Assembly: GCF_056746865.1 (NCBI RefSeq)
Contig: NZ_CM163382.1
Direction: 5' to 3' (one strand)
Length of the DNA stretch: 64,000 bases
Shown: piece after piece, positions 1 to 7,145 of the stretch
Numbering within the stretch: the first letter of the stretch is position 1
How the letters are laid out: each line of letters begins with the position of its first letter
Made by a program: the position numbers and the translations under genes
Notes under the pieces: generated by a model
Databases searched by the model: none
What the model was told of the DNA's origin: nothing
Seen by the model: only the letters and a program-made list of their open reading frames with translations

Positions 1-2
1 GC

Positions 3-266
3 GCGCTGAGAAATACTGTGGCTAAGATTGGGGCGACAAGAAGTGGTAGGTATGCGATAGAGAAAGCCGTTCAGGAAGCTACAAAAGCAGTGCGCGCAGG
101 GGCATCACCAGCAGCGATCGCCGCAGCAGAGAAACGATTTTCGGCCAATAAAATTGCCATGAAAGCAATTCGTGATGCCGTTGGGGCTGAAGAATTCGTG
201 AAACTGACAAGGGCCGGGATTGTAGCTACCCTCAGTGGCATGAAAGATGTTAGCGAATGGGAATAG
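3..266 (+). CDS. 3' end of an unidentified protein-coding gene (frame open to the left window edge)
   Basis: Frame 3 is open from nt 3 to the TAG at 264-266. The product is Ala/Lys-rich and no family is recognised. The GTG at 18 used in the ORF track is probably internal. Confidence 0.3.
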   Translation, partial: ALRNTVAKIGATRSGRYAIEKAVQEATKAVRAGASPAAIAAAEKRFSANKIAMKAIRDAVGAEEFVKLTRAGIVATLSGMKDVSEWE

Positions 267-416
267 ACGCTCTAACTAACAAAACCATAATAGCCAAGGA
301 CGGCATACTGATATTGAGCCAACTATCAAAATTCCATATCACATTACGGGCCTGTGGCTTACATTCGCTTACAGTGATGATAATTTATAACCACGCAATT
401 CTTAGGTGAGATTATC

Positions 417-1115
417 ATGATTAAAAATCTTCTTTTAATATTATCCCTGTCATTATTGGCTGGATGCGTACAAAAACCGTTAGTAACGGTCAATGCTTTA
501 TCTTCCGGGCAATCTGTCGGTAAGAAGTTCTTGATCATCCCCGCAAGCCAAGAACTTTGGAACACCAAACAGATTGAATACACTCAAATAGCTACGGTAG
601 TAGCCGCCAGTTTATCAAGCCAAGGATATACACAAGTTAAAGATGAAAAATTGGCTGACCAGGTAATTCTCTTGAACTTTTTGAGAAGCGGGGCCATTTC
701 AAATACTCGTAATGTAACCATCCCAATATACGGGCAAACTGGTGTGAGCTCAGCAACAACGTACGGAAACTCGAACACCACGTTCAATAGTTATGGTGGT
801 GGCTACGGTACAGCTAATACCACTGGAACGGCAACAACAGTTTATACGCCTACTTATGGAATTACTGGCGCGTATAACACAACTGTGACGGACACGTTCT
901 ACGGCGCAGGGGTGATACTCCAGTCGTTTGATGCCAAGGCTTATCTCAATAATAGGCAGATTAATATGTTATGGAAAGTTGGTAGCTCAGTCGTCTCGCA
1001 ACAGTCTGATGGAATTGCTGATTACAAGGGGTTGGCGAGAATAGCCGCTAGCTATGCCGGGAAAAATACAGAAGGTGATATAACTTTTAATGTTGACCCT
1101 AAAGCACCAAATTAA
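417..1115 (+). CDS. putative lipoprotein of an accessory island
   Basis: The N-terminus MIKNLLLILSLSLLAGC has a hydrophobic signal plus an L-L-A-G-C lipobox. The central region is rich in Gly/Thr/Tyr/Asn. A hairpin terminator follows directly. Not a K-12 core gene that I recognise. Confidence 0.65.
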   Translation: MIKNLLLILSLSLLAGCVQKPLVTVNALSSGQSVGKKFLIIPASQELWNTKQIEYTQIATVVAASLSSQGYTQVKDEKLADQVILLNFLRSGAISNTRNVTIPIYGQTGVSSATTYGNSNTTFNSYGGGYGTANTTGTATTVYTPTYGITGAYNTTVTDTFYGAGVILQSFDAKAYLNNRQINMLWKVGSSVVSQQSDGIADYKGLARIAASYAGKNTEGDITFNVDPKAPN

Positions 1116-1122
1116 CTAATAA

Positions 1123-1144
1123 GCCCGGTACGCCGGGCATTTAT
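1123..1144 (+). terminator. hairpin terminator after the lipoprotein gene
   Basis: GCCCGG-tacg-CCGGGC stem-loop followed by ATTTAT, 8 nt after the stop codon. Confidence 0.5.
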
Positions 1145-1180
1145 GCCCCTATTATTCATGAATCGCTTTTTCTAGAAGGT

Positions 1181-1441
1181 ATGCGACAAACGTTAAGTGA
1201 CATTGCCTACACATTCGGGGCGGGATTTCAAATCCGCTCCCAGTTGATGGGGGGCGTTACAGTACGCGCATATCCGCTTTATGTGAAACAGGAAGATTTT
1301 TCTGATATCACTGCCACAGCAAAACACCAATTTCGTGACCAGTACGCGCGCGAGGGGCATCAGTTGCAAAAAGTTTTGCAACTGCGTCCGACCAGTACAC
1401 ACACGATGGCGGTGGATACCATAAAACTGTTCTCTACATGA
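1181..1441 (+). CDS. hypothetical protein (possibly a gene fragment)
   Basis: Only an 86-aa ORF supports this call. No family is recognised and no clear RBS is seen. Confidence 0.25.
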   Translation: MRQTLSDIAYTFGAGFQIRSQLMGGVTVRAYPLYVKQEDFSDITATAKHQFRDQYAREGHQLQKVLQLRPTSTHTMAVDTIKLFST

Positions 1442-1665
1442 GACAGAGTGGTGGTGATGTGTTGATTATCGGCGTATATGCGCACAGGTCGCGCTATGAC
1501 GATGTTTTATGCGGGTACACCAATCACATGTATCTGATGTGATAAATCGCGTTACATGACCTCTCTGTTGTGCTGGTGGTTATCACGACGTTCTGAATCT
1601 GGCTTTTGTCTGATATTTTGCGACAAGTACGCGCGCGTAGCATCGACAGCATACACATTGGATAT

Positions 1666-1887
1666 TCATTTTGTGACCAATGCGATAAGTAGCGGGATAA
1701 GCATTGATAAAATCAACAGGCCGATGATCCACTTTTGATTTTCACTGGCCTTATCTCTATTTTCATCAATCTTATCCATAATTCGACGCTCCAAGCCGTG
1801 CATATCACCGCGAATGGCAATTATCTCATTGCGAACATCCGAGAAGTGGTTGGCTTGATGTTCAATGTGTGGCGTTCTGCCTTTCAT
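1666..1887 (-). CDS. small tail-anchored membrane protein (charged helical N-terminus, single C-terminal TM)
   Basis: The 73-aa product ends in WIIGLLILSMLIPLLIALVTK, preceded by a charged helical segment. This architecture resembles small phage or island membrane proteins. The family assignment is not secure. Confidence 0.4.
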   Translation of the reverse strand: MKGRTPHIEHQANHFSDVRNEIIAIRGDMHGLERRIMDKIDENRDKASENQKWIIGLLILSMLIPLLIALVTK

Positions 1888-1966
1888 GCCTGATCCTCAC
1901 CCATCGTCACCACCTGCTGGTGTATAAAGGTATTGGCCCAAGCAGCTTTCCAATGGGCACTCATGT

Positions 1967-2422
1967 TTATACGCTGACCTTACAATCAATCACCGCTTTT
2001 AACTTTTCAGCATTGCTTCCCTGACGCTTCCACGCGCTGTAAATATCTTTATCCCACGCTTTACCAGCTTTTGTTTGATAGCCTGCTTCATTGATCCGTT
2101 CAGCTATCACACGCCCATTATCAAATCCCTGTTGGATGGTATCGGCAATGATCTTTATAACTGCCGTTTCGTTATATGGCTTTGGTGGGATGTTCGACTT
2201 TCCGGCAATAAGCGACGCAGCGGCTTTTTCCATGCGCTCCACCAGCCCAAGCATTCGTGAATCAATAGACTTTTCCGGCTGTCCCAGCTTCATGCGAATC
2301 GCATCAACAAGCCAGGAGGTTTTATCCCCTCCAGAAGCGAGAACAGACCGATTAAACTCATCCTGCAATTCAGATGGGATGCGGAACGCGACCAGATTAG
2401 ATTTGCTCATTGCAAAGACCAT
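1967..2422 (-). CDS. hypothetical protein, possible ribbon-helix-helix-type N-terminus
   Basis: The 151-aa ORF has an N-terminal SKSNLVAFRIPSELQDEFNRSV segment that looks like a beta-strand plus helix of RHH regulators. It is divergent from the PerC-like gene across the iteron array. An alternative ATG lies at 2410. Confidence 0.4.
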   Translation of the reverse strand: MVFAMSKSNLVAFRIPSELQDEFNRSVLASGGDKTSWLVDAIRMKLGQPEKSIDSRMLGLVERMEKAAASLIAGKSNIPPKPYNETAVIKIIADTIQQGFDNGRVIAERINEAGYQTKAGKAWDKDIYSAWKRQGSNAEKLKAVIDCKVSV

Positions 2423-2523
2423 ATCAGTGAGTAATATCCATACAGTATACCACTGTATAACACTGTTATACGCTCAAATATCAGCCAGAAAATAACGAAC
2501 CAATCACAAATCTATCGCTGTGT

Positions 2524-2645
2524 TGTTGGTTCAGAGCTGGGCTGTGTTGGTTCAAAATGAGTTGATGTTGGTTCAATATTTTAGAAAAAACGCAATAAAA
2601 ACAACGATCTTTACAAATTGAACCAACTGAACCAACTGAACCAAC
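2524..2645. repeat. iteron-like array: 3x TGTTGGTTCA at exact 21-bp spacing, an AT-rich spacer, then 3x inverted TGAACCAAC in head-to-tail tandem
   Basis: Direct copies lie at 2524-2533, 2545-2554 and 2566-2575. Inverted copies lie at 2619-2627, 2628-2636 and 2637-2645. All six copies are perfect. Confidence 0.9.
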
Positions 2646-2681
2646 ACCTTTTTGCTTATCTATATAATCTGAGAGGCAGAA

Positions 2682-2969
2682 ATGATAAGGGACAGGAAAG
2701 CTGAAGAGCTGGAGTCAAAAGGGCTATACCGGAGAGCTGCCGCACGATGGGCAGAAGTCATGATGCTGGCAGATGGCGATAAAGAACGTGAACATGCAGC
2801 AAACAGACGCTCTGAATGTATCCGTAAGGCGGCACGCCCACCAGCAACTACAGACAAATTCGGAGATTTAAGACAGGCAGTTAAGCGGACTCATTCGGCT
2901 CTTGGTATGGATGAGGAAGCGAGAGGGTACTTCAGGCGTTATCGCGATAAAGATTGCCAGAGACAGTAA
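2682..2969 (+). CDS. PerC/Pch-family transcriptional activator-like protein
   Basis: The 95-aa product contains KAEELESKGLYRRAAARWAEVMMLADGDKEREHAANRRSECIRKA, the LExxGLxRRAAxRWxxVM...RR..C signature I associate with PerC/Pch proteins. A TATAAT lies at 2663-2668 and GAGAGG is the RBS. Confidence 0.65.
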   Translation: MIRDRKAEELESKGLYRRAAARWAEVMMLADGDKEREHAANRRSECIRKAARPPATTDKFGDLRQAVKRTHSALGMDEEARGYFRRYRDKDCQRQ

Positions 2970-3456
2970 TGCTCTATCTGTTTTGGCAAATTACCCCTCA
3001 CTTTGAAGGGATCGGAGCTATAAAAATGGTGTTATCCGGCTTCCTGCATTGCAGGTTTTCGAAAAAATCAATGGGTTAGGTCATCGTGCAAATTTGCACT
3101 CTGCCAGCCAACGCAATTTCTCGTTGGCGAAAATATCAGGTATTTACTGATTCTGCCGCCTCACAAGGATGCGAGAACCTTATAAAACCTAATATCGCAG
3201 AGCTTAATTGTGTACAGCAATTTCACGAGCAATACGCGCGCGCAGGACAACAAGCCTGAACATGGTTACACACCTCGATCGTGAGGGATGTAGGCAATGG
3301 CTTCTGACCAAAGCACCCGAAAAAACCGTGTACATAAGGGTGTACATAATCAAAAATCGCATTAGGAAGAAACCAGATACAATGCGGCATTGAAGCCAAT
3401 ACTCTACAAACAGATCCAAACTCGTAACGCCAATTCTTCCTTTTCAGCCTTCACAA

Positions 3457-3488
3457 ATGCCGCCCACTCAAACAGAGCGGCATTTTTC
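3457..3488 (+). terminator. orphan rho-independent terminator upstream of dinD
   Basis: ATGCCGC-13 nt loop-GCGGCAT followed by TTTTT. No convincing gene ends just upstream of it. Confidence 0.5.
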
Positions 3489-3578
3489 CTCCCCGCAACA
3501 TTCAATTCTGTTTTGCGTGCCTGCTCCAGATTTTGCGATGTTTTTTTGCCCAGCGCAGTGAGAACGTGAGATACTTAC

Positions 3579-3598
3579 AACTGTATATAAACACAGTT
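3579..3598 (+). promoter_or_regulatory. LexA (SOS) box of dinD
   Basis: AACTGTATATAAACACAGTT fits CTG-N10-CAG with a TA-rich centre and ends 44 nt before the dinD ATG. dinD is a known SOS gene. Confidence 0.85.
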
Positions 3599-3641
3599 GT
3601 AGACTTACTTTCCTTGCAATCGATATCACATGGAGTGGGCA

Positions 3642-4466
3642 ATGAACGAACATCATCAACCTTTTGAAGAGATAAAGCTGATTAATGCAAACGGAGCAGA
3701 ACAATGGTCAGCAAGACAACTTGGAAAACTACTGGGTTATTCAGAGTATCGTCACTTTATACCTGTATTAACGCGCGCCAAAGAAGCTTGTCTGAATAGT
3801 GGTCACACAATTGATGACCATTTCGAGGAGATCCTCGATATGGTCAAAATTGGCTCAAATGCCAAAAGAGCATTAAAAGACATCGTACTCTCCCGCTATG
3901 CCTGTTACCTGGTAGTACAAAACGGCGACCCTGCGAAACCGGTTATTGCGGCAGGGCAAACTTATTTTGCTATCCAGACCCGACGGCAGGAGCTGGCTGA
4001 CGATGAAGCTTTCAGGCAACTTCGTGAAGACGAAAAGCGTCTTTTTCTGAGAAATGAGTTGAAAGAACATAACAAACAATTAGTTGAGGCAGCGCAGCAA
4101 GCTGGGGTAGCGACAGCTATCGATTTCGCCATATTTCAGAATCATGGTTACCGGGGACTGTATGGTGGATTAGATCAGAAAGCTATCCATCAGCGGAAGG
4201 GGCTGAAAAAGAGTCAGAAGATCCTGGATCATATGGGTTCAACAGAACTGGCGGCTAATCTCTTTCGAGCTACCCAAACAGAAGAAAAACTCAAGCGGGA
4301 TGGCGTGAATTCAAAACAGCAAGCTAACACCACACACTTTGACGTGGGTAGCAAGGTGAGGCAAACCATTCAGGAACTTGGCGGAACCATGCCTGAGGAG
4401 TTGCCGACCTCGCAGGTCAGCATCAAGCAGTTGGAAAACAGTGTAAAAATTACAGAGAAGAAATAG
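3642..4466 (+). CDS. dinD: DNA damage-inducible protein D
   Basis: The product MNEHHQPFEEIKLINANGAEQWSARQLGKLLGYSEYRHF... is recognised as E. coli DinD. The ATG at 3642 was chosen over 3630 to match the DinD N-terminus. Confidence 0.93.
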   Translation: MNEHHQPFEEIKLINANGAEQWSARQLGKLLGYSEYRHFIPVLTRAKEACLNSGHTIDDHFEEILDMVKIGSNAKRALKDIVLSRYACYLVVQNGDPAKPVIAAGQTYFAIQTRRQELADDEAFRQLREDEKRLFLRNELKEHNKQLVEAAQQAGVATAIDFAIFQNHGYRGLYGGLDQKAIHQRKGLKKSQKILDHMGSTELAANLFRATQTEEKLKRDGVNSKQQANTTHFDVGSKVRQTIQELGGTMPEELPTSQVSIKQLENSVKITEKK

Positions 4467-4756
4467 CAGAAACTAAAAACTCTTTTTGTTGATTGAGATA
4501 CCCGATGCGTAAGCCAAAGTCCAGGTGCGGTGAACACAATGGCTAACATTGCACCTTTCTTTTCCACCCCTCAGTTTTAACCTACTTTTTCTTATGTATT
4601 TTCTCAGACAAGAAGTCAGAAGAATGCATCTACGCTACAGAAAACAACGATTTCACATAACTAAAAATTATCAATTTCCTCTCACCTTAAAAAATCTCAA
4701 TCGTGACAATGCGTACAAATCGCTACCCTGCCAGACAGATTTTTAGGGAGATAACC

Positions 4757-7145
<2,389 letters not shown>

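What the first reader, a model, noticed from the sequence alone, without database searches (positions are those of the whole stretch)
2524..2645. Six perfect copies of a 9-10-bp iteron in a 3-direct / 3-inverted arrangement around an AT-rich spacer
TGTTGGTTCA occurs three times with an exact 21-bp period (2524, 2545, 2566), which is two helical turns. A 43-bp AT-rich spacer follows. The reverse complement TGAACCAAC then occurs three times head-to-tail with a 9-bp period (2619-2645). The array fills the divergent intergenic region between the possible RHH gene (minus strand) and the PerC-like gene (plus strand, -10 TATAAT at 2663). This geometry is typical of either a replication origin of a satellite or plasmid-like element (iterons plus an AT-rich DNA-unwinding element) or a multi-site operator controlling both divergent promoters. 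No Rep or primase gene is visible in the window.
Basis: seen in the sequence. Interest (0 to 1): 0.55.

Follow-up and report, generated by a model that had tools for sequence, protein, structure and literature searches.

The report
Second replication-origin module of a PICI
The repeat array is real and is best read as a second, distal copy of the replication-origin module of an EcCIMP1-type phage satellite island (PICI), most likely bound by the island's primase-helicase and not by the neighbouring 151-aa protein; the module type is known, but placing it 8 kb from the initiator gene has not been described in the papers checked here.

Summary
Observation confirmed. GTTGGTTCA occurs six times in the 64-kb window, all within 2525-2645: three at a 21-bp period, a 43-nt 79%-AT spacer, then three tandem inverted copies. 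Shuffles give 0.5 copies.

The window holds only the right end (about 1-3350) of a ~19-kb island between yicC and dinD. The island is an EcCIMP1-type PICI, a phage satellite mobilised by the P22-like phage Kapi1. In homologous islands the same module lies 26 bp after the stop codon of a 918-aa primase-helicase. The flagged array is its inverted copy about 8.2 kb away.

Across 58 homologues in many genera, nearly every gene is followed by such an array. The iteron sequence changes with lineage and tracks only the last ~38 residues of the protein.

Islands carry either about 12 iterons next to the gene, or 6 there plus 6 at a site 6-9 kb away.

The neighbouring 151-aa RHH-like protein has its own separate operator repeats, so it is unlikely to bind the iterons.

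Verdict: a PICI/SaPI-type origin module in an unusual split, P4 ori/crr-like layout. Whether it fires, enhances or throttles replication is untested. Moderate interest; new variant of a known kind.

The parts
2524..2575 (+). Three iterons (core GTTGGTTCA at 2525, 2546, 2567) at an exact 21-bp period. This is the 'spaced' arm of the origin module, on the side of the 151-aa gene.
   Evidence: The phasing is conserved in other island variants although the inter-iteron sequence is completely different.
2576..2618 (.). 43-nt AT-rich spacer (79% AT, with A5-A6 tracts). It is the candidate melting site.
   Evidence: The distal spacer is exactly 43 nt with AT 0.72-0.88 in all 9 split-origin loci.
2619..2645 (-). 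Three head-to-tail iterons (TGAACCAAC x3, 9-bp period), convergent with the spaced arm. They lie on the side of perC.
2440..2471 (-). Operator-like repeats (ATACAGTATA / CACTGTATAA / CACTGTTATA) at the promoter of the 151-aa gene. They are distinct from the iterons.
   Evidence: Two repeat classes co-vary with the protein's N-terminal strand (SNLVAFR vs SLSVTFR) and not with iteron type.
1967..2422 (-). 151-aa ORF (probable real start 2410, MSKSN...) with an RHH-like N-terminus. It is a conserved island gene that always abuts the spaced arm of the distal module.
2682..2969 (+). PerC-family regulator gene, 37 bp downstream of the tandem iterons.
   Evidence: Pfam PF06069, E=1.3e-33. The EcCIMP1 homologue represses LEE1 (PMC11773190).
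2482..2488 (-). CAGCCAG (= CTGGCTG). The motif is also found on the inner flank of module 1 and at the centre of adjacent double origins. Its meaning is unknown.
3328..3350 (+). attR-like GTGTACATAAGGGTGTACATAAT. It marks the right boundary of the island.
   Evidence: matches the attL copy next to yicC in L001
18..266 (+). Last 82 codons of the island's P22 gp16-like ejection / lytic transglycosylase protein. It shows that the window begins inside the island.

Best explanation
The array is one complete PICI/SaPI-type origin module: three plus three convergent 9-bp iterons around a 43-nt AT-rich spacer. It belongs to an EcCIMP1-type phage-inducible chromosomal island. Its inferred ligand is the island's 918-aa Pri-Rep protein (zinc-ribbon/Toprim primase + DUF927 SaPI-Rep-like self-loading helicase + C-terminal DNA-binding tail), encoded about 8 kb upstream and outside the window. 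The island has two such modules in inverted orientation: module 1 sits 26 bp after the pri-rep stop codon, and module 2 is the flagged array at the other end of the island.

Inferred mechanism, by analogy with SaPI Rep and P4 alpha: after helper-phage induction and excision, Pri-Rep binds the iterons through its C-terminal tail. Two assemblies face each other across the AT-rich spacer and melt it. The helicase self-loads, and the N-terminal primase primes synthesis. The distal module either fires as a second origin or acts in cis with module 1 through protein-mediated looping, as P4 ori and crr do. Because the tandem arm abuts perC and the spaced arm lies upstream of the 151-aa gene's promoter, Pri-Rep occupancy may also influence those promoters.

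Shown here: the repeats, their conservation, the paired arrangement, and the protein/iteron co-variation. Inferred: binding, melting, firing and looping.
For: 1. In L001 the identical 9-mer forms a second array 26-136 bp after the pri-rep stop codon. The two arrays are inverted copies sharing [GTTGGTTCA]x3-ATTTGTAAAGA.... The 9-mer occurs nowhere else in those loci.
2. Of 58 pri-rep homologues (27-100% identity, many genera), nearly all have a de novo detected iteron array 27-130 bp after the stop codon. The iteron sequence differs by lineage.
3. Only residues 881-918 of the protein track iteron type: the different/same-iteron identity ratio is 0.67 there and 0.90-1.14 in the other 22 windows, falling gradually over the last ~240 residues. 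GTTGGTTCA pairs with YQRKSPRIxGRQ, and TGTTGTCTC pairs with YQGRV-REdGRQ.
4. The helicase part matches PDB 8TCH 'Pathogenicity island protein' (E=1.4e-11) and 5DGK. The primase part is 33% identical to P4 alpha (E=9e-42).
5. The architecture matches published origins. SaPI origins have 6-12 iterons 3' of rep, an AT-rich centre and opposed iterons bound by a C-terminal winged helix (PMC9371898). [quoted passage not shown]
6. Selection: island variants keep the iterons, the 21-bp phase and a 43-nt AT-rich spacer while the intervening sequence is unrelated.
7. Loci carry either ~12 adjacent iterons or 6+6 split by 5.9-9 kb, in E. coli, Lonsdalea, Chimaeribacter, Pantoea, Leclercia and Cedecea. 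All 9 split loci have a full 43-nt AT-rich distal spacer.
8. The experimentally mobilised PICI EcCIMP1 carries both arrays. The array-2/perC junction is present in 505 of 5,426 complete E. coli genomes.
Against: No binding or replication experiment exists for this island's repeats; the EcCIMP1 paper does not mention iterons or an origin. The flagged module is not immediately 3' of pri-rep, which is the canonical PICI origin position. At least one E. coli island (L005) has module 1 only, and L017/L020 have four-iteron arrays without a distal copy, so module 2 may not be essential. Decayed islands lacking pri-rep still keep the array, so it can persist without function. The window cannot show whether its own island still has pri-rep. 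The C-terminal domain could not be modelled (pLDDT 44-48), so its winged-helix nature is only inferred.
Confidence: 0.75

Rival explanations
1. The array is a Pri-Rep-bound control locus and not a firing origin. The distal iterons would titrate the initiator or 'handcuff' module 1 to limit replication, as P1 incA and F incC do. Alternatively they would serve mainly as an operator through which Pri-Rep regulates perC and the 151-aa gene.
For: The iterons are the same as at the pri-rep-proximal origin. The tandem arm ends 37 bp before the perC ATG, and perC lies directly downstream of an iteron module wherever a perC homologue was detected near one. No complete sigma-70 promoter was found there, which is compatible with factor-dependent transcription. 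In most adjacent double origins the module-2 spacer is short and GC-rich, so it is not an obvious melting site.
Against: In all 9 split loci the distal spacer is exactly 43 nt with AT 0.72-0.88, i.e. a complete origin-like module and not just binding sites. In P4, the closest two-site precedent, the second site is annotated as required in cis for replication.
Confidence: 0.17
2. The array is a multi-site operator bound by the adjacent 151-aa RHH-like protein (or by PerC) to control the divergent promoters.
For: The array lies in a divergent intergenic region. The 151-aa protein has an RHH-like N-terminus, and in every split-origin locus where a homologue was detected it abuts the distal array.
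Against: The protein's homologues have their own repeats at their promoter (CTGTATAAC-type or TGTCTTAC-type). These co-vary with its N-terminal strand and are independent of iteron type: the same protein class occurs with GTTGGTTCA, AGTGTGTCA and GTTATCCCA iterons. Iteron arrays occur without any 151-aa homologue within 10 kb downstream (L012-L015). The identical module follows pri-rep, where neither the 151-aa gene nor perC is present.
Confidence: 0.04
3. The array is a functionless relic: an inverted duplication of the real origin that is simply carried along.
For: It survives in decayed islands that lack pri-rep. One E. coli island lacks it. Modules 1 and 2 share a 38-nt identical stretch, which is compatible with duplication.
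Against: Iterons, phase and spacer length/AT-richness are kept while the intervening sequence has been replaced. The split layout recurs in six genera. The total of ~12 iterons is preserved in both adjacent and split layouts.
Confidence: 0.04

Closest known systems
PICI / SaPI replication origin (Rep-iteron ori; Ubeda/Novick/Penades work as summarised in PMC9371898 and PMC6092414)
   Same: Two sets of short iterons point toward each other across an AT-rich centre, with 6-12 iterons in total. The cognate initiator is a self-loading helicase homologous to SaPI Rep (8TCH), fused to a primase as in SaPI5 PriRep5. Specificity maps to the extreme C-terminus. The host element is an integrase/AlpA/Pri-Rep island mobilised by a helper phage.
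   Different: [quoted passage not shown] The island therefore has two origin-like modules in inverted orientation. The iterons are 9 bp, not 5-6 bp. A second or split origin was not mentioned in the PICI papers read here.
Satellite phage P4 bipartite origin (ori + crr) with alpha primase-helicase
   Same: There are two iteron clusters. One lies directly 3' of the primase-helicase gene (P4 crr), and the other lies kilobases away in a divergent intergenic region between a small DNA-binding protein gene and a regulator gene (P4 ori, between vis and sid). Each cluster has closely spaced repeats plus opposed repeats around an AT-rich stretch. The N-terminal primase domains are homologous.
   Different: The helicase and origin-binding parts are unrelated. 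The iteron sequence differs (P4 TGTTCACC). No P4 sid/psu/delta genes are annotated in the island. The helper is P22-like, not P2-like.
Iteron-plasmid control loci (P1 incA, F incC) - comparison from general knowledge, not tested
   Same: Extra arrays of the initiator's own iterons lie outside the minimal origin.
   Different: Those arrays lack an AT-rich unwinding spacer and act negatively. Here the distal array is a full origin-like module.

Membership tests
PICI/SaPI-type origin | [quoted passage not shown] | tested here: met
   3 (+) and 3 (-) exact 9-mers flank a 43-nt 79%-AT spacer.
PICI/SaPI-type origin | Located immediately 3' of the rep / pri-rep gene | tested here: not met
   The flagged array is ~8.2 kb from the pri-rep stop codon in L001. 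Its sister module (L001 14361-14471) does meet this criterion.
PICI/SaPI-type origin | Cognate initiator is a SaPI-Rep-like self-loading helicase | tested here: met
   Residues 402-813 match PDB 8TCH at E=1.4e-11 and 5DGK at E=0.012. Pfam finds DUF927 + Toprim_3 + Zn_Ribbon_Prim. The gene is outside the window and was seen only in homologous islands.
PICI/SaPI-type origin | Iteron specificity resides in the initiator's C-terminal (winged-helix) domain | tested here: inconclusive
   Co-variation is localised to residues 881-918, which supports C-terminal specificity. The fold could not be confirmed (pLDDT 44-48).
PICI/SaPI-type origin | rep + ori fragment drives autonomous replication | not testable with these tools
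   This needs a ts-plasmid rescue assay as in PMC6092414.
EcCIMP1-type PICI (host element) | int, alpA, ash, pri-rep, DUF2824/ejection-protein module and perC, flanked by att repeats; helper-dependent excision and transfer | tested here: met
   The gene content of L001 and of EcCIMP1 (L086) matches, and both carry both arrays. Mobilisation by Kapi1 was shown for EcCIMP1 only (PMC11773190). The window itself contains only the right-hand ~3.3 kb.
P4 ori/crr system | Two separated iteron clusters, one adjacent to the primase-helicase gene | tested here: met
P4 ori/crr system | Alpha-type protein including its helicase and C-terminal origin-binding domain | tested here: not met
   Only the N-terminal 359 aa align (33% identity). 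hhalign of the C-terminal domain against the P4 alpha C-terminus gives probability 0.2%.
P4 ori/crr system | Second site required in cis for replication | not testable with these tools
   This requires deletion analysis.

The most novel reading that the evidence does not exclude
EcCIMP1-type PICIs use a genuinely bipartite origin whose two 6-iteron modules must cooperate, through Pri-Rep-mediated looping as in P4 ori/crr. The modules can sit side by side or be separated by 6-9 kb of packaging and accessory genes. In the split form, the distal module couples island replication to transcription of the PerC-family virulence regulator and the RHH-like gene beside it.
Probability: 0.3. Interest if true: 0.55.

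Novelty: new variant of a known kind. Interest (0 to 1): 0.42.

Why it matters
PICIs are abundant drivers of gene transfer, phage interference and virulence regulation in Enterobacterales. About 9% of complete E. coli genomes carry this array.

The published rule is that a PICI origin lies immediately 3' of rep. This family shows a conserved two-module origin that can be split across the island. That affects how origins are annotated, which minimal replicon should be cloned, and how replication might be wired to the perC regulator.

The localised co-variation (YQRKSPRI vs YQGRV-RE, GTTGGTTCA vs TGTTGTCTC) gives a directly testable specificity code for this class of self-loading helicase.

It is not a new principle, because both iteron origins and the P4 two-site precedent are known.

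Tried and rejected
- **Structure of the Pri-Rep C-terminal domain.** Prediction from a single sequence and from an 11-sequence alignment gave pLDDT 48 and 44. That is too poor for a fold search, so none was run.
- **Similarity to P4 alpha.** Profile comparison of that domain with the P4 alpha C-terminus found none.
- **RNA families.** The Rfam scan of 1-5000 gave only a chance hairpin hit (MIR5998, 19.5 bits vs a gathering score of 180). The ssDNA fold z-score of -3.6 simply reflects the inverted iterons. An RNA-gene or terminator reading was rejected.
- **P4 literature.** One search failed on term length and another returned only CRISPR papers. P4 facts therefore rest on the GenBank annotation and on PMC6092414.
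- **Simple insertion model.** I considered that module 2 is just the second half of an adjacent double origin separated by an insertion. Spacing and flank support this. In E. coli, however, the inner flank (CTGGCTG orientation) looks more like an inverted duplicate of module 1, so the evolutionary route is left open.
- **Unresolved loci.** L028 and L029 have one module and no distal copy within the 10-kb flank. By gene positions a distal copy would probably lie beyond the fetched DNA, so they are scored as undetermined.

Full report
**1. Observation**

Reading the window confirms the description.
- TGTTGGTTCA starts at 2524, 2545 and 2566, an exact 21-bp period.
- TGAACCAAC is repeated three times head-to-tail at 2619-2645.
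- Between them lie 43 nt (2576-2618) that are 79% AT. Only 1% of all 43-nt windows in the 64 kb are as AT-rich.
- The perfectly repeated unit is the 9-mer GTTGGTTCA. The tenth base is shared by four of the six copies.
- The exact 9-mer occurs six times in the window, all inside the array. Dinucleotide-preserving shuffles give a mean of 0.52 and never reach six.
- The array lies in the 259-bp divergent intergenic region between a 151-aa ORF (minus strand) and a PerC-family gene (Pfam PerC, E=1.3e-33).

**2. Context**

The window begins inside a mobile island. Genes to the right of about 3350 are the E. coli chromosomal run dinD, yicG, ligB, gmk, rpoZ, spoT.

In the closest annotated genome (NZ_CP103589, L001; 97.7% identity over 94% of window 1-4700) a ~19-kb island lies between yicC and dinD. 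Its genes, in order, are:
- integrase
- AlpA-type HTH
- antirepressor
- Ash
- a 918-aa 'TOPRIM and DUF927' protein
- DUF2824 and P22-type DNA-ejection proteins
- a lipoprotein
- the 151-aa gene
- perC

An att-like repeat (GTGTACATA..GGTGTACATAAT) is found next to yicC and at window 3328-3350.

This island type has been characterised experimentally as EcCIMP1. EcCIMP1 is a PICI of E. coli MP1 that is excised and transduced only with the P22-like helper phage Kapi1, and its PerC-like protein represses LEE1 (PMC11773190). That paper does not mention iterons or an origin. EcCIMP1 itself (L086) carries the arrays described below.

**3. The key result: a twin array next to the initiator gene**

In L001 the 9-mer occurs 12 times, in two clusters only. 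One corresponds to the flagged array. The other starts 26 bp after the stop codon of the 918-aa gene.

The two clusters are inverted copies of one module: [GTTGGTTCA]x3 in tandem, a 43-nt AT-rich spacer beginning ATTTGTAAAGA, then three opposed copies. These opposed copies are spaced 11 and 21 nt apart in the proximal module, and 21 and 21 nt in the flagged one.

The protein has a primase zinc ribbon, a Toprim domain and DUF927.
- Its N-terminal 359 residues are 33% identical to the phage P4 alpha primase (E=9e-42).
- Residues 402-813 match the solved 'Pathogenicity island protein' 8TCH (E=1.4e-11) and the helicase 5DGK.
- It therefore appears to belong with the self-loading initiator-helicases of the kind described for SaPI Reps in PMC9371898; the identity of the two PDB entries was inferred from their deposited names, not checked.

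**4. Comparative test of the ligand**

Loci encoding 80 homologues (27-100% identity, one genome per species) were fetched. A de novo search was then made for the most repeated 9-mer in the 350 bp after each of the 58 full-length genes.
- Nearly every gene is followed by an iteron array 27-130 bp after its stop codon. The iteron differs by lineage: GTTGGTTCA, TGTTGTCTC, GTCGGTTCA, GTTGTACCA, AGTGTGTCA, GTTATCCCA, GGTGTAACA, ACTGGTAAC, TGTACTACA and others.
- Protein pairs of 60-90% overall identity were compared in 40-residue windows. Pairs with the same iteron and pairs with different iterons are about equally similar over most of the protein (different/same ratios 0.90-1.14, drifting down over the last ~240 residues) and differ sharply only in residues 881-918, where the ratio is 0.67.
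- All GTTGGTTCA loci carry YQRKSPRIxGRQ. The TGTTGTCTC loci carry YQGRV-RE(D/G)GRQ in an otherwise nearly identical tail.

This is the signature expected if the extreme C-terminus reads the iterons, as the C-terminal winged-helix domain does in SaPI Reps (PMC9371898). The fold itself could not be verified: two AlphaFold runs gave pLDDT 44-48, and there is no profile similarity to the P4 alpha C-terminus.

**5. Selection on the flagged array**

Other E. coli island variants (L003, L004, EcCIMP1) have a different left-hand neighbour gene. Their inter-iteron sequences and half of the spacer are unrelated. Even so, they keep the six 9-mers, the 21-bp phase and a 43-nt AT-rich spacer.

The array-2/perC junction is present in 505 of 5,426 complete E. 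coli genomes. The pri-rep-end/array-1 junction is present in 366. The excess is explained at least partly by decayed islands that lost the integrase-to-primase half but kept the 151-aa gene, array 2 and perC (L087).

The array can therefore persist as a relic. The window cannot show whether its own island is intact.

**6. One origin in two layouts**

Across genera there are two arrangements.

*Adjacent layout.*
- About 12 iterons over 260-300 bp follow the gene, made of two inverted modules around a central CTGGCTGG.
- There is no distal array.
- Examples are Enterobacter, Klebsiella, Kosakonia, Erwinia, Morganella and Pseudomonas loci.

*Split layout.*
- Six iterons follow the gene and six more lie 5.9-9 kb downstream.
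- It occurs in E. coli, Lonsdalea, Chimaeribacter, Pantoea, Leclercia and Cedecea.

*Spacers.*
- The spacer of module 1 is AT-rich everywhere (0.70-0.84).
- In most adjacent origins the module-2 spacer is 34-36 nt and GC-rich.
- In all nine split origins the distal spacer is exactly 43 nt and 72-88% AT, i.e. a complete origin-like module.

*Exceptions.*
- L005 has module 1 only.
- L017 and L020 have four iterons.
- L028 and L029 are undetermined, because a distal site would lie beyond the fetched flank.

*Gene order.*
- perC follows module 2 in E. coli and in L007, and follows module 1 in Lonsdalea, Chimaeribacter, Pantoea and Erwinia.
- In every split locus where a homologue of the 151-aa gene was detected, it abuts the spaced arm of the distal module.

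**7. The rival binder**

Homologues of the 151-aa protein have an RHH-like N-terminus. They also have their own direct repeats at their promoter, in two classes:
- CTGTATAAC/ACTGTTATAC (window 2440-2471), found with the strand SNL[VI]AFR.
- TGTCTTACAC/TGTCTTACAG, found with the strand SLSVTFR.

The first class occurs with three different iteron types. Iteron arrays also occur in loci with no detectable homologue of the 151-aa protein within 10 kb downstream. The 151-aa protein is therefore most likely an autoregulator with a separate operator, not the iteron binder.

**8. Mechanism**

*Best-supported reading.* The flagged array is a Pri-Rep binding array built as a complete PICI-type origin module. 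By analogy with SaPI Rep and with the EcCICFT073 pri-rep-ori replicon (PMC9371898, PMC6092414), the initiator would:
1. bind the convergent iterons;
2. melt the AT-rich spacer;
3. self-load as a helicase;
4. prime synthesis with its own primase domain.

*Role of the distal copy.* What the distal copy adds is not known. The closest precedent is P4. Its crr lies directly 3' of the alpha gene and its ori lies 4.5 kb away, in the divergent vis/sid intergenic region (GenBank annotation; sequences). The crr is annotated as required in cis.

*Alternatives.* The main alternative is a control role: titration or handcuffing of the initiator, or regulation of perC. No complete sigma-70 promoter is detectable in front of perC. 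A known RNA family and a terminator reading were excluded.

**9. Verdict**

The option of an operator bound by the 151-aa protein is not.

The module type is already known as the PICI/SaPI origin. Three things are not described in the PICI papers checked here:
- the second, distal, inverted module upstream of perC;
- the conserved 12-versus-6+6 organisation;
- the localised specificity segment of the initiator.

I rate it a new variant of a known kind, of moderate interest.

Noticed in passing
window 2440-2471: Operator-like repeats (ATACAGTATA / CACTGTATAA / CACTGTTATA) lie upstream of the 151-aa gene. Across genera, two repeat classes co-vary with the protein's N-terminal strand (SNLVAFR vs SLSVTFR). 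This suggests RHH-type autoregulation independent of the iterons.
   Followed up: partly
window 3328-3350 (and L001 ~4465-4487): An att-like imperfect direct repeat GTGTACATA(A/G)(G/A)GGTGTACATAAT marks the island ends. The island's right boundary in the window is about 3350.
   Followed up: partly
window 18-266; L001 15098-20266: This PICI carries homologues of P22-type ejection proteins (DUF2824, 'phage DNA ejection protein', and a 906-aa lytic-transglycosylase protein). That fits its P22-like helper Kapi1. Their role in satellite biology is uncharacterised.
   Followed up: no
window 417-1115: A 232-aa predicted lipoprotein (signal/lipobox-like N-terminus) has no Pfam or PHROG match. It is conserved in the E. 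coli islands.
   Followed up: no
window 2482-2488; L001 ~14500; centre of the 12-iteron origins in L007/L024/L032/L047: The motif CTGGCTG(G) sits at the centre of adjacent double origins and on the inner flank of both split modules in E. coli, but not in split origins of other genera. Its meaning is unknown.
   Followed up: partly
L087 (E. coli I2, NZ_CP063068): A decayed island with a truncated integrase, an IS3 insertion and no alpA-to-primase region still keeps the 151-aa gene, array 2 and perC. Such remnants help explain why array 2 is found in more genomes (505) than array 1 (366).
   Followed up: partly
window 3581-3596: A LexA-box-like CTGTATATAAACACAG lies upstream of dinD (3630-4466), consistent with dinD being annotated as DNA damage-inducible.
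   Followed up: no
L038/L040 (Providencia), after the pri-rep homologue: The lineage-specific iteron GTTATCCCA resembles a DnaA box (TTATCCACA). This may be coincidental.
   Followed up: no
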